Shown in pieces: positions 19,310 to 29,137 of a stretch of 64,000 nucleotides of DNA. Within the stretch, counting starts at the first letter, position 1; every line of letters begins with the position of its first letter. The notes beneath the pieces are model-generated. The model was not told the origin of the DNA. It made no database searches and worked only from the letters and a program-made list of their open reading frames with translations. The position numbers were made by a program, and so were the translations under genes. Origin of the DNA: a virus (taxonomy: Duplodnaviria > Caudoviricetes); IMG/VR virus record IMGVR_UViG_3300042350_003801. The stretch is one strand, 5' to 3'.

Positions 19310-20086
19310 TTATTGAGCAAGGGTTGCATCCAGGCGAAGACCGTCCCTAAAGATTGCTTGCCGAGTATGAACAGGAAGATTGCCAAGAAGTTGCAGGCTT
19401 GCGAGTGTATTAAACTTGAACATCTTAACCAACTCTTCCCTCACCCTATCAATCTTCTGTATGGCCAACATTTCTGAACCAAGCGGTGAGATGATCGCTT
19501 CCCATGCATCCGAATCCATTTGAAAGCCTTTAGTGACTTCAAAGCGGATTGCTCGCATAATCCTCAACCCGTCTTCTCGGATTCTCGTTTCAGGATTCCC
19601 AACGAAAGATAAAATCTGGTCCTTGATGTCTTGTTGACCATCAAATGGGTCAATTAGGGTTCCATCATTTGCGCGGGCGATTGCATTACATTTAAAATCA
19701 CGGCGCGACAAATCATCAAGAAGTGTTCCAGGTTTTACCCATTCTGGGCGACGACCATCTTTGTATGGGCCGTCTTTGCGAGCAAGAACAAAATCAGCAT
19801 AATCTGTGATTCCTTTGAGTGGAGAATCATTAGGAACTTTGGCCCGAATTGTCAAAAATTGATGTGGCTCACAATTCAAAGAAGTTTCCTTTTTTAAATC
19901 AAATCCTAAAGCAATGAGATGTTCTTTCATTGCACCAAAAGCAACTTCTACTGAATCAAATTGTTCACTGGAAACAACAGCAAAATCAATATCATTAGAT
20001 TCAATTCCTAGAAGACTATCTCTAACGCAGCCACCTACTTCAAAGAATTGGAAAGTATCTTGAGACATTTTCAAATTGTGCAGCAA
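19310..20086 (-). CDS. tRNA nucleotidyltransferase (CCA-adding)/poly(A) polymerase family, class II, short form
   Basis: VGGCVRD..DIDF, DDLSRRDF..NA, DPFDG..D, EDGLRIMRAIRF. Confidence 0.9.
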   Translation of the reverse strand: MLHNLKMSQDTFQFFEVGGCVRDSLLGIESNDIDFAVVSSEQFDSVEVAFGAMKEHLIALGFDLKKETSLNCEPHQFLTIRAKVPNDSPLKGITDYADFVLARKDGPYKDGRRPEWVKPGTLLDDLSRRDFKCNAIARANDGTLIDPFDGQQDIKDQILSFVGNPETRIREDGLRIMRAIRFEVTKGFQMDSDAWEAIISPLGSEMLAIQKIDRVREELVKMFKFNTLASLQLLGNLPVHTRQAIFRDGLRLDATLAQ

Positions 20087-21932: not shown

Positions 21933-22022
21933 TGGTTTTTCCTGAGGATGCCTACACTATATTAGGTGTTTGGAAAATAGGGTAAATAAAGGGCCAGTTT
22001 TTCAACCGGCCGAGTGTTTAGT

Positions 22023-23825
22023 TTAAACGAACAGGTTCAAGATTGAATCTTTAGAAAGTTCATTTGGCTCCAAAATAACATCCGCATTTTCTTTCTTTGT
22101 GGTGATTGTAAAAATATCACTAAGTCGGATAAAATTCTCGGATTGAGAAAGAATAGCAGACTGTGCAATTTTGTCCTTTTCTTTATAAGAACTTACAATA
22201 CCTTCACCAAAGAATTGGTCAATAAGATAGAAATTTACCCCAGTATTATTTTCATTGGGCTTTAGTAGTCCAAGAATTTTCTGCCGATAATCCATCACAC
22301 AATCAACCGAAAATAGAATTTTGTTTGAATCAATCATATAATTGGAATTAATTTTATCTCCATAACCAATAATAATTTTATATTGTTGATTTTCTGGGGC
22401 ACTATATCGGTTAAGTTTGATTAGGTATTCTCCATCAAGTTTATGGCAGTAGAGCCATTCCGATGCGCCATTGTGAGCACTCGTTACATCACCAGAATAG
22501 GAAAGACCGCCGCCGTTATGTCGTGAGTTCCAACCAATTTTTCCATTAACATTTACGGCTGACAAATCTAAATCAGAATGAGATTGAGTATTTTTCCAGT
22601 AAACTCCAACCAAAAGACTTTGAGACTCTTCATATGGAACTGAAATTTTTGTATATTTTGGAATGTTACCAGAGAACATTTTTTCAGAAACTGGAACTGC
22701 GTAATCAACAAAAGGAGCAGTATAGATTTTTGTATCCTTTTTTTGAGTTTTTACGGTTTCGAGCAATGTGAAAAGATTTTGTTGAATCTGCTCCATCGTG
22801 AGCGTAGATGGCTTAGTTTTTGCAAAACTTTTACCATTTCGGATTTTATAGTACCGATTGTCATTATCGGTCAAGTAAAGTTTTGTTGCACTGATAGCCC
22901 TAAGAATTTGAAAAATGCTTGCATTTTGCATTGCATCAGTCAATTCTTTACGAGAATACATCTTGGAAGTAAGACTCCCCAAAACATTTTCTGCAAGAGG
23001 AACGTGATGAACTTTTGCAAGTTTTGCAATACGGTTAACGATCCTAGAGTTATTTTTATTGAATTTAAAGGCGAGCCAAAGTGGCTTATAGCGATGAAAA
23101 GACTTAGATAGTTCAACAATCTGTGATTCTGAAGTAATCAGAACATTCAAATCAAAACGAGAAGACTTAATGTTAGTGATCAGTTGAGAATTTTTAATAA
23201 CCAATGTTTCTTTAGTTGCAGTATAAATCAGATAGCGAAACAGTTCTTCCCCATTTTTAGGAAGAATGCCAGTCAAATCAACAATAAGAGACTTTGCCTC
23301 CTTGTTTGCAATTTTTTCGTTACCGGTGAAAATATAACCGCAGTCTGCAAGTACATTCAAAATATTTTGAATTGTGTCTTGCTGTAGTGCAATTTTAGCA
23401 TTCAAAAACTTAAAACAAGATGCATTAAGATTTTCCTTACTAATTCCTTTAATAACACGAAGTTTTAGAGATTTAGGCGAATCGGTTGCGAACTCGTCAG
23501 TTGGGATATAAACATATTCTGGCGAGTCAAGACCCAAACTCATCAACCCATAGGTTGTAAAGTAATGTAGAATTTGGTCTCGTAGACGTTCAATAAGAGT
23601 TACAGATTGAACTTTTGTCCAAGATTTATAAAAAGAAGTATTGTTAAGTTGCGAATTTTGCAGAGTTGTGGATTTAATTTCACTCAAAATACTATCTTTA
23701 AGGTGCATTGCCGTTGGTGCAATCACAACACCAAGTTCTTGGTCAATATAAAAATCGTTAGAAATTGGATTGCTTCGGCCAATAACGGCACCAAAAAGAA
23801 GAAGAGAAGAGGAGATGTTTTTCAT
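22023..23825 (-). CDS. 600-aa protein with C-terminal TerD-like segment
   Basis: DLDLSA...YSGDVTSA..GASE resembles TerD-family motifs; N-terminal FYKSW..QILHYFTTYG. Confidence 0.65.
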   Translation of the reverse strand: MKNISSSLLLFGAVIGRSNPISNDFYIDQELGVVIAPTAMHLKDSILSEIKSTTLQNSQLNNTSFYKSWTKVQSVTLIERLRDQILHYFTTYGLMSLGLDSPEYVYIPTDEFATDSPKSLKLRVIKGISKENLNASCFKFLNAKIALQQDTIQNILNVLADCGYIFTGNEKIANKEAKSLIVDLTGILPKNGEELFRYLIYTATKETLVIKNSQLITNIKSSRFDLNVLITSESQIVELSKSFHRYKPLWLAFKFNKNNSRIVNRIAKLAKVHHVPLAENVLGSLTSKMYSRKELTDAMQNASIFQILRAISATKLYLTDNDNRYYKIRNGKSFAKTKPSTLTMEQIQQNLFTLLETVKTQKKDTKIYTAPFVDYAVPVSEKMFSGNIPKYTKISVPYEESQSLLVGVYWKNTQSHSDLDLSAVNVNGKIGWNSRHNGGGLSYSGDVTSAHNGASEWLYCHKLDGEYLIKLNRYSAPENQQYKIIIGYGDKINSNYMIDSNKILFSVDCVMDYRQKILGLLKPNENNTGVNFYLIDQFFGEGIVSSYKEKDKIAQSAILSQSENFIRLSDIFTITTKKENADVILEPNELSKDSILNLFV

Positions 23826-23833
23826 TATTTTTA

Positions 23834-24089
23834 GGCGAAAGGTAATTTTTTAAGAGTTAGGAACCTTTTGTGCCAAGGTTGTTTTTGACGGGTAGTAAAA
23901 CCTGCAAATTGTTAAAAGGAACTACCTATGTCAAAGAAAACAGTCGTGTGCACACCAATTAGTTCATTTGTGGCGAACAGTAAAAACGTCCAAGTTGTGT
24001 TAAAAGGAACTGTTTATGCCAGGGTTGTTGCAGACGAAAAGTAAATTTTGGTGTGCCTTAGAGGCGCGAGTGAAGGAACTTTTTGTGTC
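23834..24089 (-). ncRNA. array of four covarying hairpins (candidate structured leader/small RNAs)
   Basis: Units 24033-24089, 23972-24020, 23887-23932, 23834-23874; identical architecture with compensatory stems; promoter (palindrome+CATAAT) just upstream. Confidence 0.7.
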
Positions 24090-24493
24090 GGCGGTTTTGC
24101 TTGTGTACTCCGTTATTATGGCACGGATTCTGATGAAATGGTGGAAGAGTGTTGCACTTTTGCAACTGGCACACCACCTAAATGAACTCGGCCAAATAGT
24201 AGTCTACATTCACTTCAAGTTTGGCTGCTTCTACTTCATATTCTTTAATTTTTTCGTGGTCAATAAACAAATCAATAGACTCGTCTGAAATGATGTTTTC
24301 TTTGTCAATCATCAGAAAGTGAAATTAATTGTATTGCAGTCATTTCAAATACTCGTCAATTTTTTTGTTTTCGTGATTGTCAAAGATGAAAGAATGGCCG
24401 AAAGACTCGGCCATTGCATAAGAGATCTCAAAGGCTTCGTTAAGGTCGTCAGTGTTTACAGACTCACCATTACCGTGAACCGTATAACGGTAT

Positions 24494-25811: not shown

Positions 25812-26222
25812 TCACAGGTATTCGAGGAATTTAACAAAGAAAAGGGGTAAATCTTTTTCCAAAAGTTCGTGCATAACCATCAACTCAAGTGTTATCCAGC
25901 TCATTAAATAACCAAATCCACGGTGTGATGAAATTTCTCGGTCTTCACAAGCAACAATAACACCATTCCATATATCGTCTTCAAATTCATATTTTTCGGT
26001 TTCAACTAATTCAGTAATGCGTTTATAACTTTGAGTTATTATTTCAAAAAAGATTTCCTCGTAGGCCGTTCCCAATATTCTCGCCTGTTCACAATTTAAT
26101 CCGTCAATGAACCACCAGAAGTTCAAGACTGTTTCGTAGTTTGAGCCAAGATACTTTTCTGGTTCTTCAATAATAACTGGGTAATTTTCAGAAATTTTAA
26201 GGTGAATGAATGAGTAGTTCAT
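25812..26222 (-). CDS. GPNY-family paralog
   Basis: [14 protein letters not shown]...LELMVMH. Confidence 0.8.
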   Translation of the reverse strand: MNYSFIHLKISENYPVIIEEPEKYLGSNYETVLNFWWFIDGLNCEQARILGTAYEEIFFEIITQSYKRITELVETEKYEFEDDIWNGVIVACEDREISSHRGFGYLMSWITLELMVMHELLEKDLPLFFVKFLEYL

Positions 26223-26689
26223 AATTTATCAAAAAGAGGAACAAACAATAAATCCTTACCATCGTCCAAAAGCGTGTGCATACCAATTAGTTCATAAGTG
26301 GCATTCCAGGCGGCATCCCCGGCGGCATCCCTGGCGGCAGCCCAGGCGGCAATCCTGGCGGCAGACATGGCGGCATTCCTGGCGGCAGCCCCGGCGGCAT
26401 CCCTGGCGGCATCCCTGGCGGCATTCCAGGCGGCAATCCTGGCGGCAGACATGGCGGCATTCCTGGCGGCAGCCCCGGCGGCAGCCCAGGCGGCATTCCT
26501 GGCGGCATCGTCTAGGGCATGATAACGGCGGGCAACTTCATTCCATTGGTTCTCGGTAAGACCATCAATAAACCACCAGAAGTTAATGACGGTTTCGTAG
26601 TTTGGTCCTAGAAAATTCTGTGGATTTGTTAGGGCTTCAGGTTTTTGAAGGCAGTTGGAGAAGTTTTGATGTGCTTTTGAGTGTTTCAC
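26219..26689 (-). CDS. GPNY-family paralog with 17 AAxx repeats
   Basis: Repeats at 26303-26506. Confidence 0.85.
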
Positions 26690-28432: not shown

Positions 28433-29137
28433 TCAGGAAGCAGAGGTTTTGAGGTTACGAACGTTGAAATAGAAGCCAGACTTATTGGCTTCTAATTTTT
28501 CATCCAGGAGGTTTTGAATCACCGCCAACGTAGCAGCGGCTGCCATAAAGTTGGCGGCGATAAGTTGCGGGCGAGACTCTTGAAGTCTGGCACAACTACC
28601 GGCGCGAGGAATTTCATCTTCCGGTTGGCTAATGTTGGGAACAACATCTTTTGGATTCATTCCAACATTCTCTCCATTGATGCGACCAAACCAAAGTGTT
28701 TGACCGCGAACTTCTTCAATACCATCACTGTTACCAGGAGTAATAAAGAAAAAGTCTTTGTCGGTGCAGGTAAGCATAATGGCATCAATTACAGCGGCGC
28801 GGGTTGCATCGTTATCAACCGCTGCAATAATCAGTGGAGACTCACTTTCCTCCAGGAAAGGAACAAAAGATGCCATCGTGATGTACTCACCAAATGCATT
28901 AACATTAGTGAGACCCATTGCACTACACATCTCAGCCATTGCATCAGCCTTATTTTGACCAACGTGATCCGGTGTCATAAACTGACGACTCTGATTCTTA
29001 TTCTCAAAGTCATCACCATCAATAATCGTAACCATATTGTCACGAGTCGCCGGATGATACTGAAGGGTTTTAACAAGAGGTGGAATAAGATACCCACCGG
29101 TACCGCCAGTTCCGATCACAAAAGTCTTATCAAACAT
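28433..29137 (-). CDS. ThiF/E1-like ubiquitin-activating enzyme (PRTRC-type)
   Basis: GTGGTG, IDGD, RQ..GQNKA, AVDN, putative catalytic SCA, Q...ANFMAA. Confidence 0.9.
   Translation of the reverse strand: MFDKTFVIGTGGTGGYLIPPLVKTLQYHPATRDNMVTIIDGDDFENKNQSRQFMTPDHVGQNKADAMAEMCSAMGLTNVNAFGEYITMASFVPFLEESESPLIIAAVDNDATRAAVIDAIMLTCTDKDFFFITPGNSDGIEEVRGQTLWFGRINGENVGMNPKDVVPNISQPEDEIPRAGSCARLQESRPQLIAANFMAAAATLAVIQNLLDEKLEANKSGFYFNVRNLKTSAS

What the first reader, a model, noticed from the sequence alone, without database searches (positions are those of the whole stretch)
23834..24089. Four-hairpin covarying RNA array in the leader of the TerD-like gene
Seen (minus strand): four units GRC-AY-A-[6-bp arm]-TCCT-variable loop-TT-[arm']-C-GYC. 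The arms are AAAAGT/ACTTTT, AACAGT/ACTGTT, GGTAGT/ACTACC and AAAGGT/ACCTTT, closed by GAC/GTC or GGC/GCC: all different, all perfectly paired. Units are arranged as two dimers joined by similar 12-nt linkers (aacaacc). A palindrome+CATAAT promoter sits ~20 nt before unit 1 and the ATG of the 600-aa gene is 9 nt after unit 4. Inference: an undescribed structured RNA, either a multi-site protein-binding leader (autoregulation or sponge) or a processed small-RNA/guide array partnered with the 600-aa protein.
Basis: partly seen in the sequence, partly recalled or inferred. Interest (0 to 1): 0.85.

Follow-up and report, generated by a model that had tools for sequence, protein, structure and literature searches.

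The report
Phage Y-RNA-like hairpins with TerD protein
Four small folded RNA units in front of a large phage gene belong to a widespread RNA family, found in no catalogue searched, that almost always sits beside this same uncharacterised protein, in phage tRNA clusters and in a bacterial RNA-repair operon, so the pair looks like an unrecognised RNA-protein particle built like Ro60 with its Y RNAs.

Summary
Four hairpin units lie on the minus strand at 24089-23834, each with a 3-bp outer helix, an AYA bulge, a 6-bp helix ending G-C/U-A, a loop starting UCCU and ending U, and a single-C bulge.

The units belong to a large RNA family:
- I found 221 distinct units in 106 sources, with 8 of 9 pairs showing compensatory changes.
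- Single mismatches are G.U 13 times and A.C once, which fits RNA on the gene's sense strand.
- A search with the RNA pattern alone recovered the 600-aa protein's homologues in 57 of 83 paired viral loci and 8 of 12 paired bacterial loci. None of 24 and 95 chance matches had one.
- All 92 viral units are on the gene's strand, at a median 104 nt upstream.

The protein has a 390-aa helical N-domain with no solved counterpart, plus a C-terminal TerD fold. It is not Ro60.

About 10% of units in relatives carry intact or permuted tRNA-like payloads; one scores to Rfam YrlA below threshold. In Chryseobacterium the module sits between RtcB and RlaP.

Best reading (0.6): cognate handle RNAs of a Ro60/Y-RNA-like particle, with unit 4 (8 nt from the AUG) probably also giving autoregulation. 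Binding and expression are untested.

I found no Rfam, Pfam or literature description. Earlier notes of this scan reached the same reading on other genomes.

The parts
24151..24166 (-). Palindrome GTTGCAAAAGTGCAAC upstream of the array; function unknown
   Evidence: Sequence. Kept in the 94% orthologue L001 with changes that leave only G.U-type pairing; absent from the 82% orthologue L002.
24115..24123 (-). Extended -10-like promoter element TGCCATAAT, 25 nt before unit 1 (inferred promoter)
   Evidence: Sequence. A TGn + -10-like hexamer stands at the equivalent place in L001 (TGCCATACT) and L002 (TGCTACATT). The consensus scan did not list it because there is no -35. Not verified.
24033..24089 (-). 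Unit 1: handle GAC-ACA-AAAAGT / ACTTTT-C-GTC, 35-nt loop
   Evidence: Model R1 33.8 bits, E 1.9e-9. The orthologue L002 has GAAAGT/ACTTTC, a compensatory change.
24021..24032 (-). 12-nt linker TGCAACAACCCT between units 1 and 2
23972..24020 (-). Unit 2: handle GGC-ATA-AACAGT / ACTGTT-C-GCC, 27-nt loop
   Evidence: R1 52.7 bits, E 1.4e-16.
23933..23971 (-). 39-nt spacer between the two dimers; holds a 27-nt insertion absent from L001 and L002
   Evidence: A 9-nt stretch of the spacer is complementary to the loop of unit 1 (I5).
23887..23932 (-). Unit 3: handle GAC-ATA-GGTAGT / ACTACC-C-GTC, 24-nt loop
   Evidence: R1 51.1 bits, E 5.4e-16. L002 has GGCAGT/ACTGCC, a compensatory change.
23875..23886 (-). 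12-nt linker AAAAACAACCTT between units 3 and 4
23834..23874 (-). Unit 4: handle GGC-ACA-AAAGGT / ACCTTT-C-GCC, 19-nt loop; ends 8 nt before the start codon
   Evidence: R1 44.6 bits, E 1.6e-13.
22023..23825 (-). 600-aa protein: helical N-domain (1-~390) with no solved counterpart, plus a C-terminal TerD-fold domain (~393-560); the presumed RNA partner
   Evidence: ORF. No Pfam, PHROG or PADLOC family. AF2 model pLDDT 84, pTM 0.80. TerD fold: Foldseek probability 1.0, VIA Z 9.9. N-domain unmatched in PDB. The family has 1180 clusters at E<=1e-30.
21992..22011 (-). Terminator-like hairpin right after the gene
19310..20086 (-). Context: CCA-adding tRNA nucleotidyltransferase 2 kb downstream on the same strand, in a window without any tRNA gene
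   Evidence: Pfam PolyA_pol 3.9e-17. PHROG tRNA nucleotidyltransferase 3e-48. ARAGORN finds 0 tRNAs. The same gene order holds in L001.

Best explanation
The four hairpins are four copies of a conserved RNA 'handle' module, and this module is the cognate RNA of the 600-aa protein encoded just downstream.

Anatomy of the handle:
- a 3-bp outer helix
- a 3x1 internal loop (AnA opposite C)
- a 6-bp helix that always ends G-C, U-A
- a loop base UCCU...U

The stem sequences are free to vary as long as they pair. The apical loop is a variable payload.

In this phage the array is probably transcribed from an extended -10 promoter as the 5' part of the mRNA: promoter, U1-U4, ORF, terminator.

Proposed mechanism (inferred, not shown): the protein binds the invariant internal loop and loop base of each unit. 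This would form a ribonucleoprotein organised like Ro60 with its Y RNAs, with a constant protein-binding handle and a variable module. In relatives the variable module is a tRNA or a tRNA mimic, which would link the particle to tRNA and RNA damage control. Unit 4 ends 8 nt from the AUG, so protein bound there would also occlude the ribosome-binding region and give negative autoregulation.

What is shown:
- the structure, by covariation
- the strand
- the tight two-way genomic coupling with the protein
- the payload types
- the RNA-repair and tRNA-cluster contexts

What is inferred:
- direct binding
- processing into separate small RNAs
- autoregulation
- the cellular role
For: Structure:
- In 46 units all 9 pairs are kept in 99% of cells, 8 of 9 pairs have compensatory changes, and there are 101 double-change cells against 28 in shuffles. 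Slid controls give 32-57% pairing.
- In an unbiased set picked without any pairing requirement, 113 of 155 matches pair at all 4 free stem positions, against about 2% expected by chance.
- Orthologues at 94% and 82% protein identity keep the handles, change two stems by compensatory substitutions, and let the loops drift by indels.

RNA rather than DNA:
- Single non-Watson-Crick positions are G.U 13 times and A.C once.
- 92 of 92 units are on the gene's strand.

Coupling to the protein:
- Every homologue locus examined (26-94% identity) has 1-6 units. These include Synechococcus phages S-CRM01 and S-CBWM1, gut phage Phass-1, Nautilia and a Marinifilaceae MAG.
- From the RNA pattern alone, 57 of 83 paired viral loci hold the protein against 0 of 24 chance loci (p 2e-10).
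- In bacterial genomes the figures are 8 of 12 against 1 of 108 for the matches that are not fully paired (0 of 95 with at most 2 of 4 pairs, 1 of 13 with 3 of 4; p 5e-9).
- Whole-genome scans place the units only around the gene in S-CRM01 and S-CBWM1.

Y-RNA-like organisation:
- 23 of 221 units carry T-loop-bearing payloads, both permuted and intact tRNAs.
- S-CRM01 unit L003:2622-2736 aligns end to end to Rfam YrlA at 35.9 bits, E 3e-6.

Context:
- tRNA genes occur in 25 of 65 protein-positive viral loci against 1 of 24 controls.
- Chryseobacterium has WYL / RtcB / RNAs / protein / RlaP.
- L010 has RtcB 1.8 kb upstream.
- The window has a CCA enzyme, an RNA ligase and a phosphoesterase.

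Protein:
- The invariant residues include many basic ones (R245, K247, R329, K382, H87, H274).
Against: - There is no direct evidence that the protein binds RNA. Its N-domain matches no solved RNA-binding fold, and TerD domains are not known RNA binders.
- No expression or processing data exist: no RNA run holds the sequence.
- 80 of 92 units lie within 500 nt upstream on the same strand, which a purely cis-acting leader would also explain.
- The window's own four units carry only short A/U-rich loops with no tRNA-like payload.
- Specific RNA-repair genes are rare next to the module in viral loci: 1 of 65 each by tblastn.
- The covariation set was partly chosen by pairing, and the model-fitted alignment leans towards the structure. 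The unbiased pattern set is the cleaner test.
Confidence: 0.6

Rival explanations
1. Purely cis-regulatory 5' leader. The hairpins control translation or stability of the downstream mRNA, by autoregulation or as 5' protection against RNases, and have no life as separate RNAs.
For: Most units lie 17-270 nt upstream of the gene on its strand. Unit 4 ends 8 nt before the AUG and no Shine-Dalgarno sequence is visible. A promoter-like element precedes the array and a terminator follows the gene.
Against: A leader does not need 1-6 copies with different stems, nor tRNA or permuted-tRNA payloads of 100-140 nt. Units also occur 1.3-2.6 kb downstream of the gene (Phass-1; six units), 2.5 kb upstream inside a tRNA cluster (S-CBWM1), and in a second cluster about 10 kb away (Phass-1). 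Part of this reading, autoregulation by the proximal unit, is compatible with the best explanation.
Confidence: 0.2
2. Processing or punctuation cassettes recognised by host or phage RNases or tRNA enzymes (RNase P, Z, E or III, or CCA enzyme). The protein acts in the same pathway but does not bind the handle.
For: Some handles enclose a complete tRNA with encoded CCA, so the handle is then a leader-trailer duplex of a pre-tRNA (L012:1576-1693; L045, L046, L093). The module is enriched in tRNA clusters. A CCA enzyme lies nearby in the window.
Against: The handle occurs with this one protein family across hosts as different as cyanobacteria, Bacteroidota, Bacillota and Campylobacterota, which points to a dedicated partner rather than varied host enzymes. 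Whole phage genomes with 25-33 tRNAs have handles only next to the gene, not at every tRNA.
Confidence: 0.12
3. Guide or antisense RNA array. The variable loops base-pair with nucleic-acid targets for the protein.
For: The architecture is a constant scaffold plus a variable segment. The loops differ between units.
Against: The longest complement of each loop in the 64-kb window is 9-11 nt, the same as shuffled loops. The loops are A/U-rich and change by indels between close orthologues. Many payloads are folded tRNA-like domains, not single-stranded guides. Host genomes could not be searched.
Confidence: 0.04
4. DNA-level elements: single-strand hairpins for replication, recombination or homing-endonuclease sites.
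For: Homing endonuclease genes (DUF559/Vsr-like, HNH) are frequent near units in tRNA regions.
Against: The ratio of G.U to A.C is 13:1. The strand bias with the gene is 92:0. One unit matches the YrlA RNA model.
Confidence: 0.03

Closest known systems
Bacterial and phage Ro60 (Rsr) with Y RNAs YrlA/YrlB (Rfam RF02553; Chen et al. 2014, PMC4201824), encoded in rsr-yrlBA-rtcBA type loci
   Same: - One to several small RNAs are encoded beside the gene of a ~600-aa protein.
- The RNAs share a constant stem ('handle') and differ in an apical module.
- Some modules are circularly permuted tRNA mimics (T arm, closed acceptor stem, D arm); one of these aligns to the whole YrlA model.
- The module occurs in phages and bacteria.
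- In Chryseobacterium it sits next to RtcB, where rsr sits in Salmonella.
   Different: - The protein has no TROVE ring and no vWA domain. No Ro60 appears in Foldseek or VIA searches, and there is no Pfam hit.
- The handle lacks the GNCGAAN0-1G Ro60-binding motif and has its own invariant features: an AnA/C internal loop, a GU/AC closing pair and UCCU.
- No unit reaches the Rfam gathering score.
- The four units of this window have no tRNA-like domain.
TerD-domain proteins of the ter stress-response system (PF02342; e.g. PDB 2qz7, 2kxt, 3ibz)
   Same: The C-terminal ~170 residues adopt the TerD fold (Z 9.9, rmsd 2.9 A over 140 residues; Foldseek probability 1.0). They keep a DxDxS ... GW ... 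SGD.T....G.SE pattern like the Ca-binding signature.
   Different: The domain is fused to a ~390-aa helical domain. The gene is not in a ter operon. Its genomic partner is an RNA family. The Pfam TerD model is not reached (best E 0.0085 in 2 of 25 members).
Autoregulatory mRNA leaders of RNA-binding proteins (ribosomal-protein leaders, T4 RegA and gp32 operators; established knowledge, not tested here)
   Same: A copy of the presumed protein-binding RNA sits right at the translation start (8 nt from the AUG).
   Different: There are multiple tandem copies with different stems, copies far from the gene, and tRNA payloads.
Zorya ZorC EH-signature domain
   Same: One AlphaFold-DB cluster named after ZorC is the second-best structural match of the N-domain (E 1.8e-7, probability 1.0). 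This is a weak hint of a nucleic-acid-binding helical domain.
   Different: TM is only 0.41 and rmsd 13 A. There is no Pfam EH_Signature hit and no PADLOC Zorya hit, no solved ZorC among the PDB matches, and no ZorA/B/D context.
Handle RNAs beside Ro60-like (helical + vWA) proteins of Felix O1-type phages
   Same: The same idea: several small RNAs sharing a handle, one with a permuted tRNA, next to a large protein in a phage tRNA region.
   Different: The model of the present handle finds nothing in the whole Felix O1 genome at E<=0.01, so by this test it is another RNA family with another protein.

Membership tests
Y RNA of the YrlA type (Rfam RF02553) / Ro60 RNP | Encoded next to a Ro60/Rsr gene (TROVE domain, usually + vWA) | tested here: not met
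   The adjacent protein has no Pfam TROVE or vWA hit. No Ro60 chain appears among Foldseek PDB or VIA-wide matches for the whole model or the N-domain. The other window ORFs scanned show no TROVE. The rest of the phage genome is not available.
Y RNA of the YrlA type (Rfam RF02553) / Ro60 RNP | Ro60-binding motif GNCGAAN0-1G (bacteria) or GGUCCGA (animals) on the 5' strand of the stem (PMC4201824) | tested here: not met
   The 5' strands read GRC-AYA-NNNNGU-UCCU in all four units. No unit contains GNCGAA.
Y RNA of the YrlA type (Rfam RF02553) / Ro60 RNP | tRNA-like domain (T arm, D arm, closed acceptor stem) | tested here: not met
   The window units have 19-35-nt loops, no ARAGORN hit and no tRNA or YrlA hit even at E<=10. 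The feature is met in relatives' units (S-CRM01, L012, L053, L066 and others).
Y RNA of the YrlA type (Rfam RF02553) / Ro60 RNP | Score at or above the Rfam gathering threshold (69 bits) | tested here: not met
   The window has no hit. The best relative scores 35.9 bits.
TerD domain (PF02342) | TerD beta-sandwich fold | tested here: met
   Residues 393-560 match TerD, TerE and TerZ. Foldseek probability 1.0, E about 1e-4 against PDB and 2e-5 against Swiss-Prot models. VIA Z 9.9 and 8.9.
TerD domain (PF02342) | Sequence match to the Pfam model above its cut-off; Ca-binding GDN(R/L)TGEGDGDDE-type motif | tested here: inconclusive
   Only 2 of 25 family members touch the model at E 0.0085. The invariant D418, D420, G445, D446, T448, G453, E456 resemble the motif but are not identical to it.
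ZorC / EH-signature domain | Sequence or fold match to the EH_Signature domain, and Zorya gene context | tested here: not met
   There is one AFDB cluster hit with TM 0.41. Pfam and PADLOC give nothing. There are no ZorABD neighbours.
tRNA | Cloverleaf recognised by ARAGORN or Rfam RF00005 | tested here: not met
   none in the window.
The handle-RNA family defined here (model R1) | 3-bp helix, AnA bulge, 6-bp helix ending G-C/U-A, loop starting UCCU and ending U, single C bulge; on the strand of, and near, a homologue of the 600-aa protein | tested here: met
   All four units meet every feature. R1 scores are 33.8-52.7 bits. Across 221 units the family shows UCCU in 99% and a terminal U in 97%; the scan that gathered them required AnA, a C bulge and full pairing, so those three features count as the family definition rather than as measured frequencies.

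The most novel reading that the evidence does not exclude
A widespread ribonucleoprotein class of phages and bacteria that has not been described. It would consist of a helical + TerD-domain protein (at least 1180 sequence clusters) that captures a family of modular 'handle' RNAs carrying tRNAs, tRNA mimics or short loops. It would be non-homologous to Ro60/Y RNA but occupy the same niche: an RtcB repair operon in at least one bacterium and tRNA clusters in phages. It would act in tRNA-centred conflict, for example by presenting decoy or spare tRNA bodies to anticodon nucleases or to repair enzymes, possibly under Ca2+ control through the TerD domain.
Probability: 0.35. Interest if true: 0.9.

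Novelty: new variant of a known kind. Interest (0 to 1): 0.82.

Why it matters
Ro60 with its Y RNAs is the only well-studied case of a protein that uses modular, tRNA-mimicking noncoding RNAs as adaptors, and what the tRNA-like module does is still open.

If this reading is right, there is a second solution of the same design. It is built from a different protein and a different handle. It is spread over more than a thousand protein clusters, in phages of cyanobacteria and gut bacteria, and in chromosomes such as Chryseobacterium where it sits inside an RtcB/RlaP repair operon.

Consequences if true:
- It would give a new, genetically tractable entry to the question of what such particles do. 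Cultured hosts exist for S-CRM01, S-CBWM1 and Chryseobacterium.
- It would assign a first molecular partner to a TerD-domain protein.
- It would explain unannotated 'spacers' and probably spurious small ORFs in phage tRNA regions.

For this window it turns a 256-nt 'intergenic' stretch and a 600-aa orphan into one functional unit.

Tried and rejected
1. Ro60 hypothesis for the protein. I expected a TROVE ring, but the whole-model and N-domain fold searches (Foldseek PDB, VIA-wide, AFDB, Atlas) and a profile search against PDB sequences found none.

2. Known RNA family. Rfam at gathering score and at E<=10 gave nothing relevant in the window. No tRNAs were found.

3. Guide RNAs. Loop complementarity in the window equals that of shuffles.

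4. Same family as the Felix O1-type handle RNAs of earlier scan notes. R1 finds nothing in Felix O1.

5. Alternative partner protein in paired-unit loci that lack the 600-aa homologue. Only homing endonucleases (DUF559 with C2H2 fingers) and unrelated ORFs recur. About 9 of the 26 such loci are simply cut at the unit.

6. Expression. Two run searches found only lake-water DNA metagenomes and no RNA run.

7. A general link to specific repair enzymes in viral loci. tblastn with the window's CCA enzyme and RNA ligase and with an RtcB fragment hit only 1 of 65 loci each, so the repair link rests on the Chryseobacterium operon, L010 and the window's own gene set.

8. A related-loci scan of viral contigs with the single protein found nothing. 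The RNA pattern scan was far more productive.

9. A conserved loop class (ACAAUUU) occurs in only 8 of 221 units, too few to build on.

10. Burroughs & Aravind 2016 (PMC5062991) is not held and could not be checked for a mention of this protein family.

Full report
**The observation**

On the minus strand the region reads as four units with one common plan: a 3-bp outer helix (GAC/GTC or GGC/GCC), a 3-nt bulge (ACA or ATA), a 6-bp helix, a loop that starts TCCT and ends TT, and one bulged C on the 3' side.

The coordinates are U1 24089-24033, U2 24020-23972, U3 23932-23887 and U4 23874-23834.

Two similar 12-nt linkers join U1-U2 and U3-U4, and a 39-nt spacer separates the two dimers. The start codon (23825) follows unit 4 after 8 nt.

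The 5' pattern has four exact hits in the window, all here. A covariance model (R1) built from 19 units, three of them from this window, scores the four at E 1e-16 to 2e-9 and finds nothing else in 64 kb. The single-sequence fold forms the four hairpins but is not thermodynamically exceptional (z -1.2). The case therefore rests on comparison.

**Comparative evidence for structure**

Homologues of the 600-aa protein were found at 26-94% identity. Their loci were fetched, and every one carries units of the same plan:
- 4 in each of the two close orthologues
- 6 around g174 of Synechococcus phage S-CRM01
- 2 in S-CBWM1
- 3-6 in several metagenomic phages
- 6 (9 genome-wide) in gut phage Phass-1
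- 1 each in Nautilia lithotrophica and a Marinifilaceae MAG

An alignment of the whole leader with the 94% and 82% orthologues shows three things. The handles are invariant. The loops drift by substitutions and indels. Two stems changed by compensatory substitutions: AAAAGT/ACTTTT to GAAAGT/ACTTTC, and GGTAGT/ACTACC to GGCAGT/ACTGCC.

On 46 model-aligned units, 99% of cells pair and 8 of 9 pairs show changes on both sides. There are 101 double-change cells against 28 +/- 4 in shuffles, and slid controls pair at 32-57%. A MAFFT alignment of 19 units gives 100% pairing and 7 of 9 compensatory pairs.

These sets were partly chosen by pairing, so I made an unbiased test. A pattern fixing only the conserved letters, with four stem positions left free on each side, was scanned over viral contigs. 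Of 155 matches, 113 pair at all four free positions, where chance gives about 2%.

Among matches with one non-Watson-Crick position, 13 are G.U and 1 is A.C. This fits an RNA read from this strand, not DNA or the opposite strand.

**Coupling with the protein**

Among the 120 viral loci picked by the RNA pattern alone:
- 57 of the 83 with fully paired stems contain a homologue of the protein within the fetched stretch.
- None of the 24 loci whose matches do not pair (the chance background) contains one (Fisher p 2.4e-10).
- All 92 units are on the gene's strand.
- 80 lie within 500 nt upstream, with a median of 104 nt.
- About nine of the 26 'protein-less' loci are cut right at the unit.

The same scan of 185,579 prokaryote genomes returned mostly chance matches, as expected for 596 Gb. 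However, 8 of the 12 fully paired ones have the protein just downstream, against 0 of 95 poorly paired matches (at most 2 of 4 pairs). Counting the 13 matches with 3 of 4 pairs, one of which has the protein, the comparison is 8 of 12 against 1 of 108 (p 5e-9). These are five Chryseobacterium, one Solobacterium, one Muribaculaceae and one other genome.

Whole-genome scans with R1 put the units only around the gene in S-CRM01 and S-CBWM1. In Phass-1 they fall in two same-strand clusters.

A profile of the protein finds 1180 clusters (50% identity) at E<=1e-30, so the family is large.

**The protein**

It has no Pfam, PHROG, PADLOC or PDB-sequence match. The AlphaFold2 model is confident (pLDDT 84, pTM 0.80).

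Residues ~393-560 are a TerD fold: Foldseek probability 1.0, and VIA Z 9.9 to 2qz7 and 8.9 to 2kxt. They keep a conserved DxDxS ... SGD.T....G.SE pattern.

The first ~390 residues are a mostly helical domain. It has no solved counterpart:
- The best VIA Z is 6.5, and only on a 70-residue bundle.
- Foldseek PDB gives nothing at E<=0.001.
- The Atlas search finds only viral hypothetical proteins of the same family.
- AlphaFold-DB clusters give family members, a 766-aa 'TerD family protein', and a weak ZorC EH-domain match (TM 0.41).

I had expected Ro60 (a TROVE ring plus vWA). That was tested and not met.

**Payloads and the Y-RNA analogy**

Across 221 distinct units from 106 sources I found 52 different arm sequences. 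The loops start UCCU in 99% and end with U in 97%. The bulge is AUA, AAA or ACA; the scan that collected the units required AnA, a C bulge and full pairing.

Loops have a median length of 32 nt, but 31 exceed 60 nt and at least 23 contain a T-loop. Some are circularly permuted tRNA bodies: T arm, acceptor stem closed by a loop, then D arm. In these the handle stands where the anticodon arm would be, which is the architecture of bacterial YrlA Y RNAs (PMC4201824).

The S-CRM01 unit L003:2622-2736 aligns to the whole Rfam YrlA model at 35.9 bits. That is E 3e-6, but below the 69-bit gathering score.

Others enclose an intact tRNA with encoded CCA (L012:1576-1693). In Chryseobacterium a normal-order tRNA body carries the handle, closed by a tetraloop, in place of its anticodon loop.

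The handle is thus a portable module grafted onto tRNA bodies in three topologies, or used bare, as in this window.

It lacks the Ro60-binding GNCGAAN0-1G motif. R1 finds nothing in Felix O1, whose Ro60-like protein has its own handle RNAs according to earlier notes of this scan.

**Context**

- tRNA genes occur in 25 of 65 protein-positive viral loci (205 tRNAs in 633 kb), against 1 of 24 chance loci.
- In S-CRM01 and S-CBWM1 the gene sits in the middle of the tRNA cluster.
- In Chryseobacterium sp. MMS23-Vi53 the order is: WYL regulator (divergent), RtcB, RNAs, the protein, RlaP, R2K ATP-grasp. The protein thus takes the place that rsr has in rsr-yrlBA-rtcBA operons.
- L010 has RtcB 1.8 kb upstream.
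- The window is from a large lake-water phage, with a tail fibre, a helicase and two TnpB-like genes. It has no tRNA gene in 64 kb.
- The window does encode a CCA-adding enzyme 2 kb downstream, an Rnl-type RNA ligase and a metallophosphoesterase.
- Specific repair genes are, however, rare beside the module in viral loci.

**Mechanism**

I commit to the following, at about 0.6. The units are the cognate RNAs of the protein, which recognises the invariant AnA/C internal loop, the closing G-C/U-A pairs and the UCCU...U loop base. The array is co-transcribed with the gene from an extended -10-like promoter that is conserved in position in three orthologues. The resulting particle is an analogue of Ro60-Y RNA whose variable modules connect it to tRNA and RNA damage control. 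The start-proximal unit also gives autoregulation.

Structure, strand, coupling, payloads and contexts are shown. Binding, processing, autoregulation and the cellular role are inferred.

The rivals are a purely cis leader (0.2), processing cassettes for other enzymes (0.12), guides (0.04) and DNA-level elements (0.03).

**Novelty**

There is no Rfam 15 family and no Pfam or PHROG family. I found no paper linking TerD proteins with Y-like RNAs:
- The jumbo-phage survey PMC7824862 mentions phage TerD only as part of the Ter system, and ROT/TROVE separately.
- A catalogue of 10,006 unnamed viral RNA candidates (PMC10690425) may contain the motif, but it names no such family.
- Burroughs & Aravind 2016 could not be read.

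Earlier AI notes of this scan described the same RNA-protein pairing on other genomes, and on this same region. They are leads, not evidence. I re-derived the pairing here and tested the RtcB-operon claim myself.

Noticed in passing
L003:2791-2937 (S-CRM01 g173, minus strand) and L014:5585-5884 (Phass-1 WIC39680.1): Two annotated 'hypothetical protein' CDSs in published phage genomes lie entirely over handle-RNA units (S-CRM01 units at 2750-2968; Phass-1 units at 5580-5903). They are probably spurious gene calls.
   Followed up: partly
window 24048-24056 with 23950-23958 and 24168-24176: The loop of unit 1 (GGCACACCA) is complementary over 9 nt to the 27-nt insertion in the U2-U3 spacer, and also to a site upstream of the palindrome. 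The insertion is absent from both orthologues, so the pairing is specific to this window.
   Followed up: partly
window 33814-35010 (+) and 54836-56014 (+): There are two paralogous ~395-aa transposase genes on the plus strand (PHROG 506; E 1e-128 and 2e-132; I take them to be of the TnpB / IS200-IS605 OrfB type) in an otherwise minus-strand phage region. Associated RNAs were not examined.
   Followed up: no
window 28433-29137 (-) and 30208-31320 (-): A ThiF-like E1 gene (Pfam E 3e-11) and a protein with a weak prokaryotic JAB match (E 2e-4, below the Pfam cut-off) flank an unassigned 303-aa ORF (29211-30122). This may be a ubiquitin-like conjugation/deconjugation set in a phage.
   Followed up: no
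window 26095-26252, 37388-37559, 43104-43282 (-): Three small genes share a similar upstream sequence (TTTATTGTTTGTTCCTCTTTTT...ATGAACTAC) and an N-terminal motif (PEKYLGxNY). They form a paralogous family scattered over the window.
   Followed up: no
L046, L063, L093, L094, L018, L067 (viral contigs): A ~220-280-aa family recurs beside handle units in tRNA regions that lack the 600-aa protein. Two of the three members scanned match DUF559 (Vsr-like endonuclease), and one of these also has C2H2 zinc fingers. They are likely homing endonucleases.
   Followed up: partly
L171:4230-4370 (Chryseobacterium, minus strand): A normal-order tRNA-like RNA has its anticodon loop replaced by the handle, closed by a UUUU loop. 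This is the handle in circularly permuted topology relative to the phage units. It has open acceptor ends that could in principle receive CCA.
   Followed up: partly
window 19310-20086 (-), 35558-36253 (-), 37917-39404 (-): A CCA-adding enzyme, a metallophosphoesterase and an Rnl-type RNA ligase are present, although the 64-kb window has no tRNA gene. This is an RNA-repair tool set whose substrates are not obvious here.
   Followed up: partly
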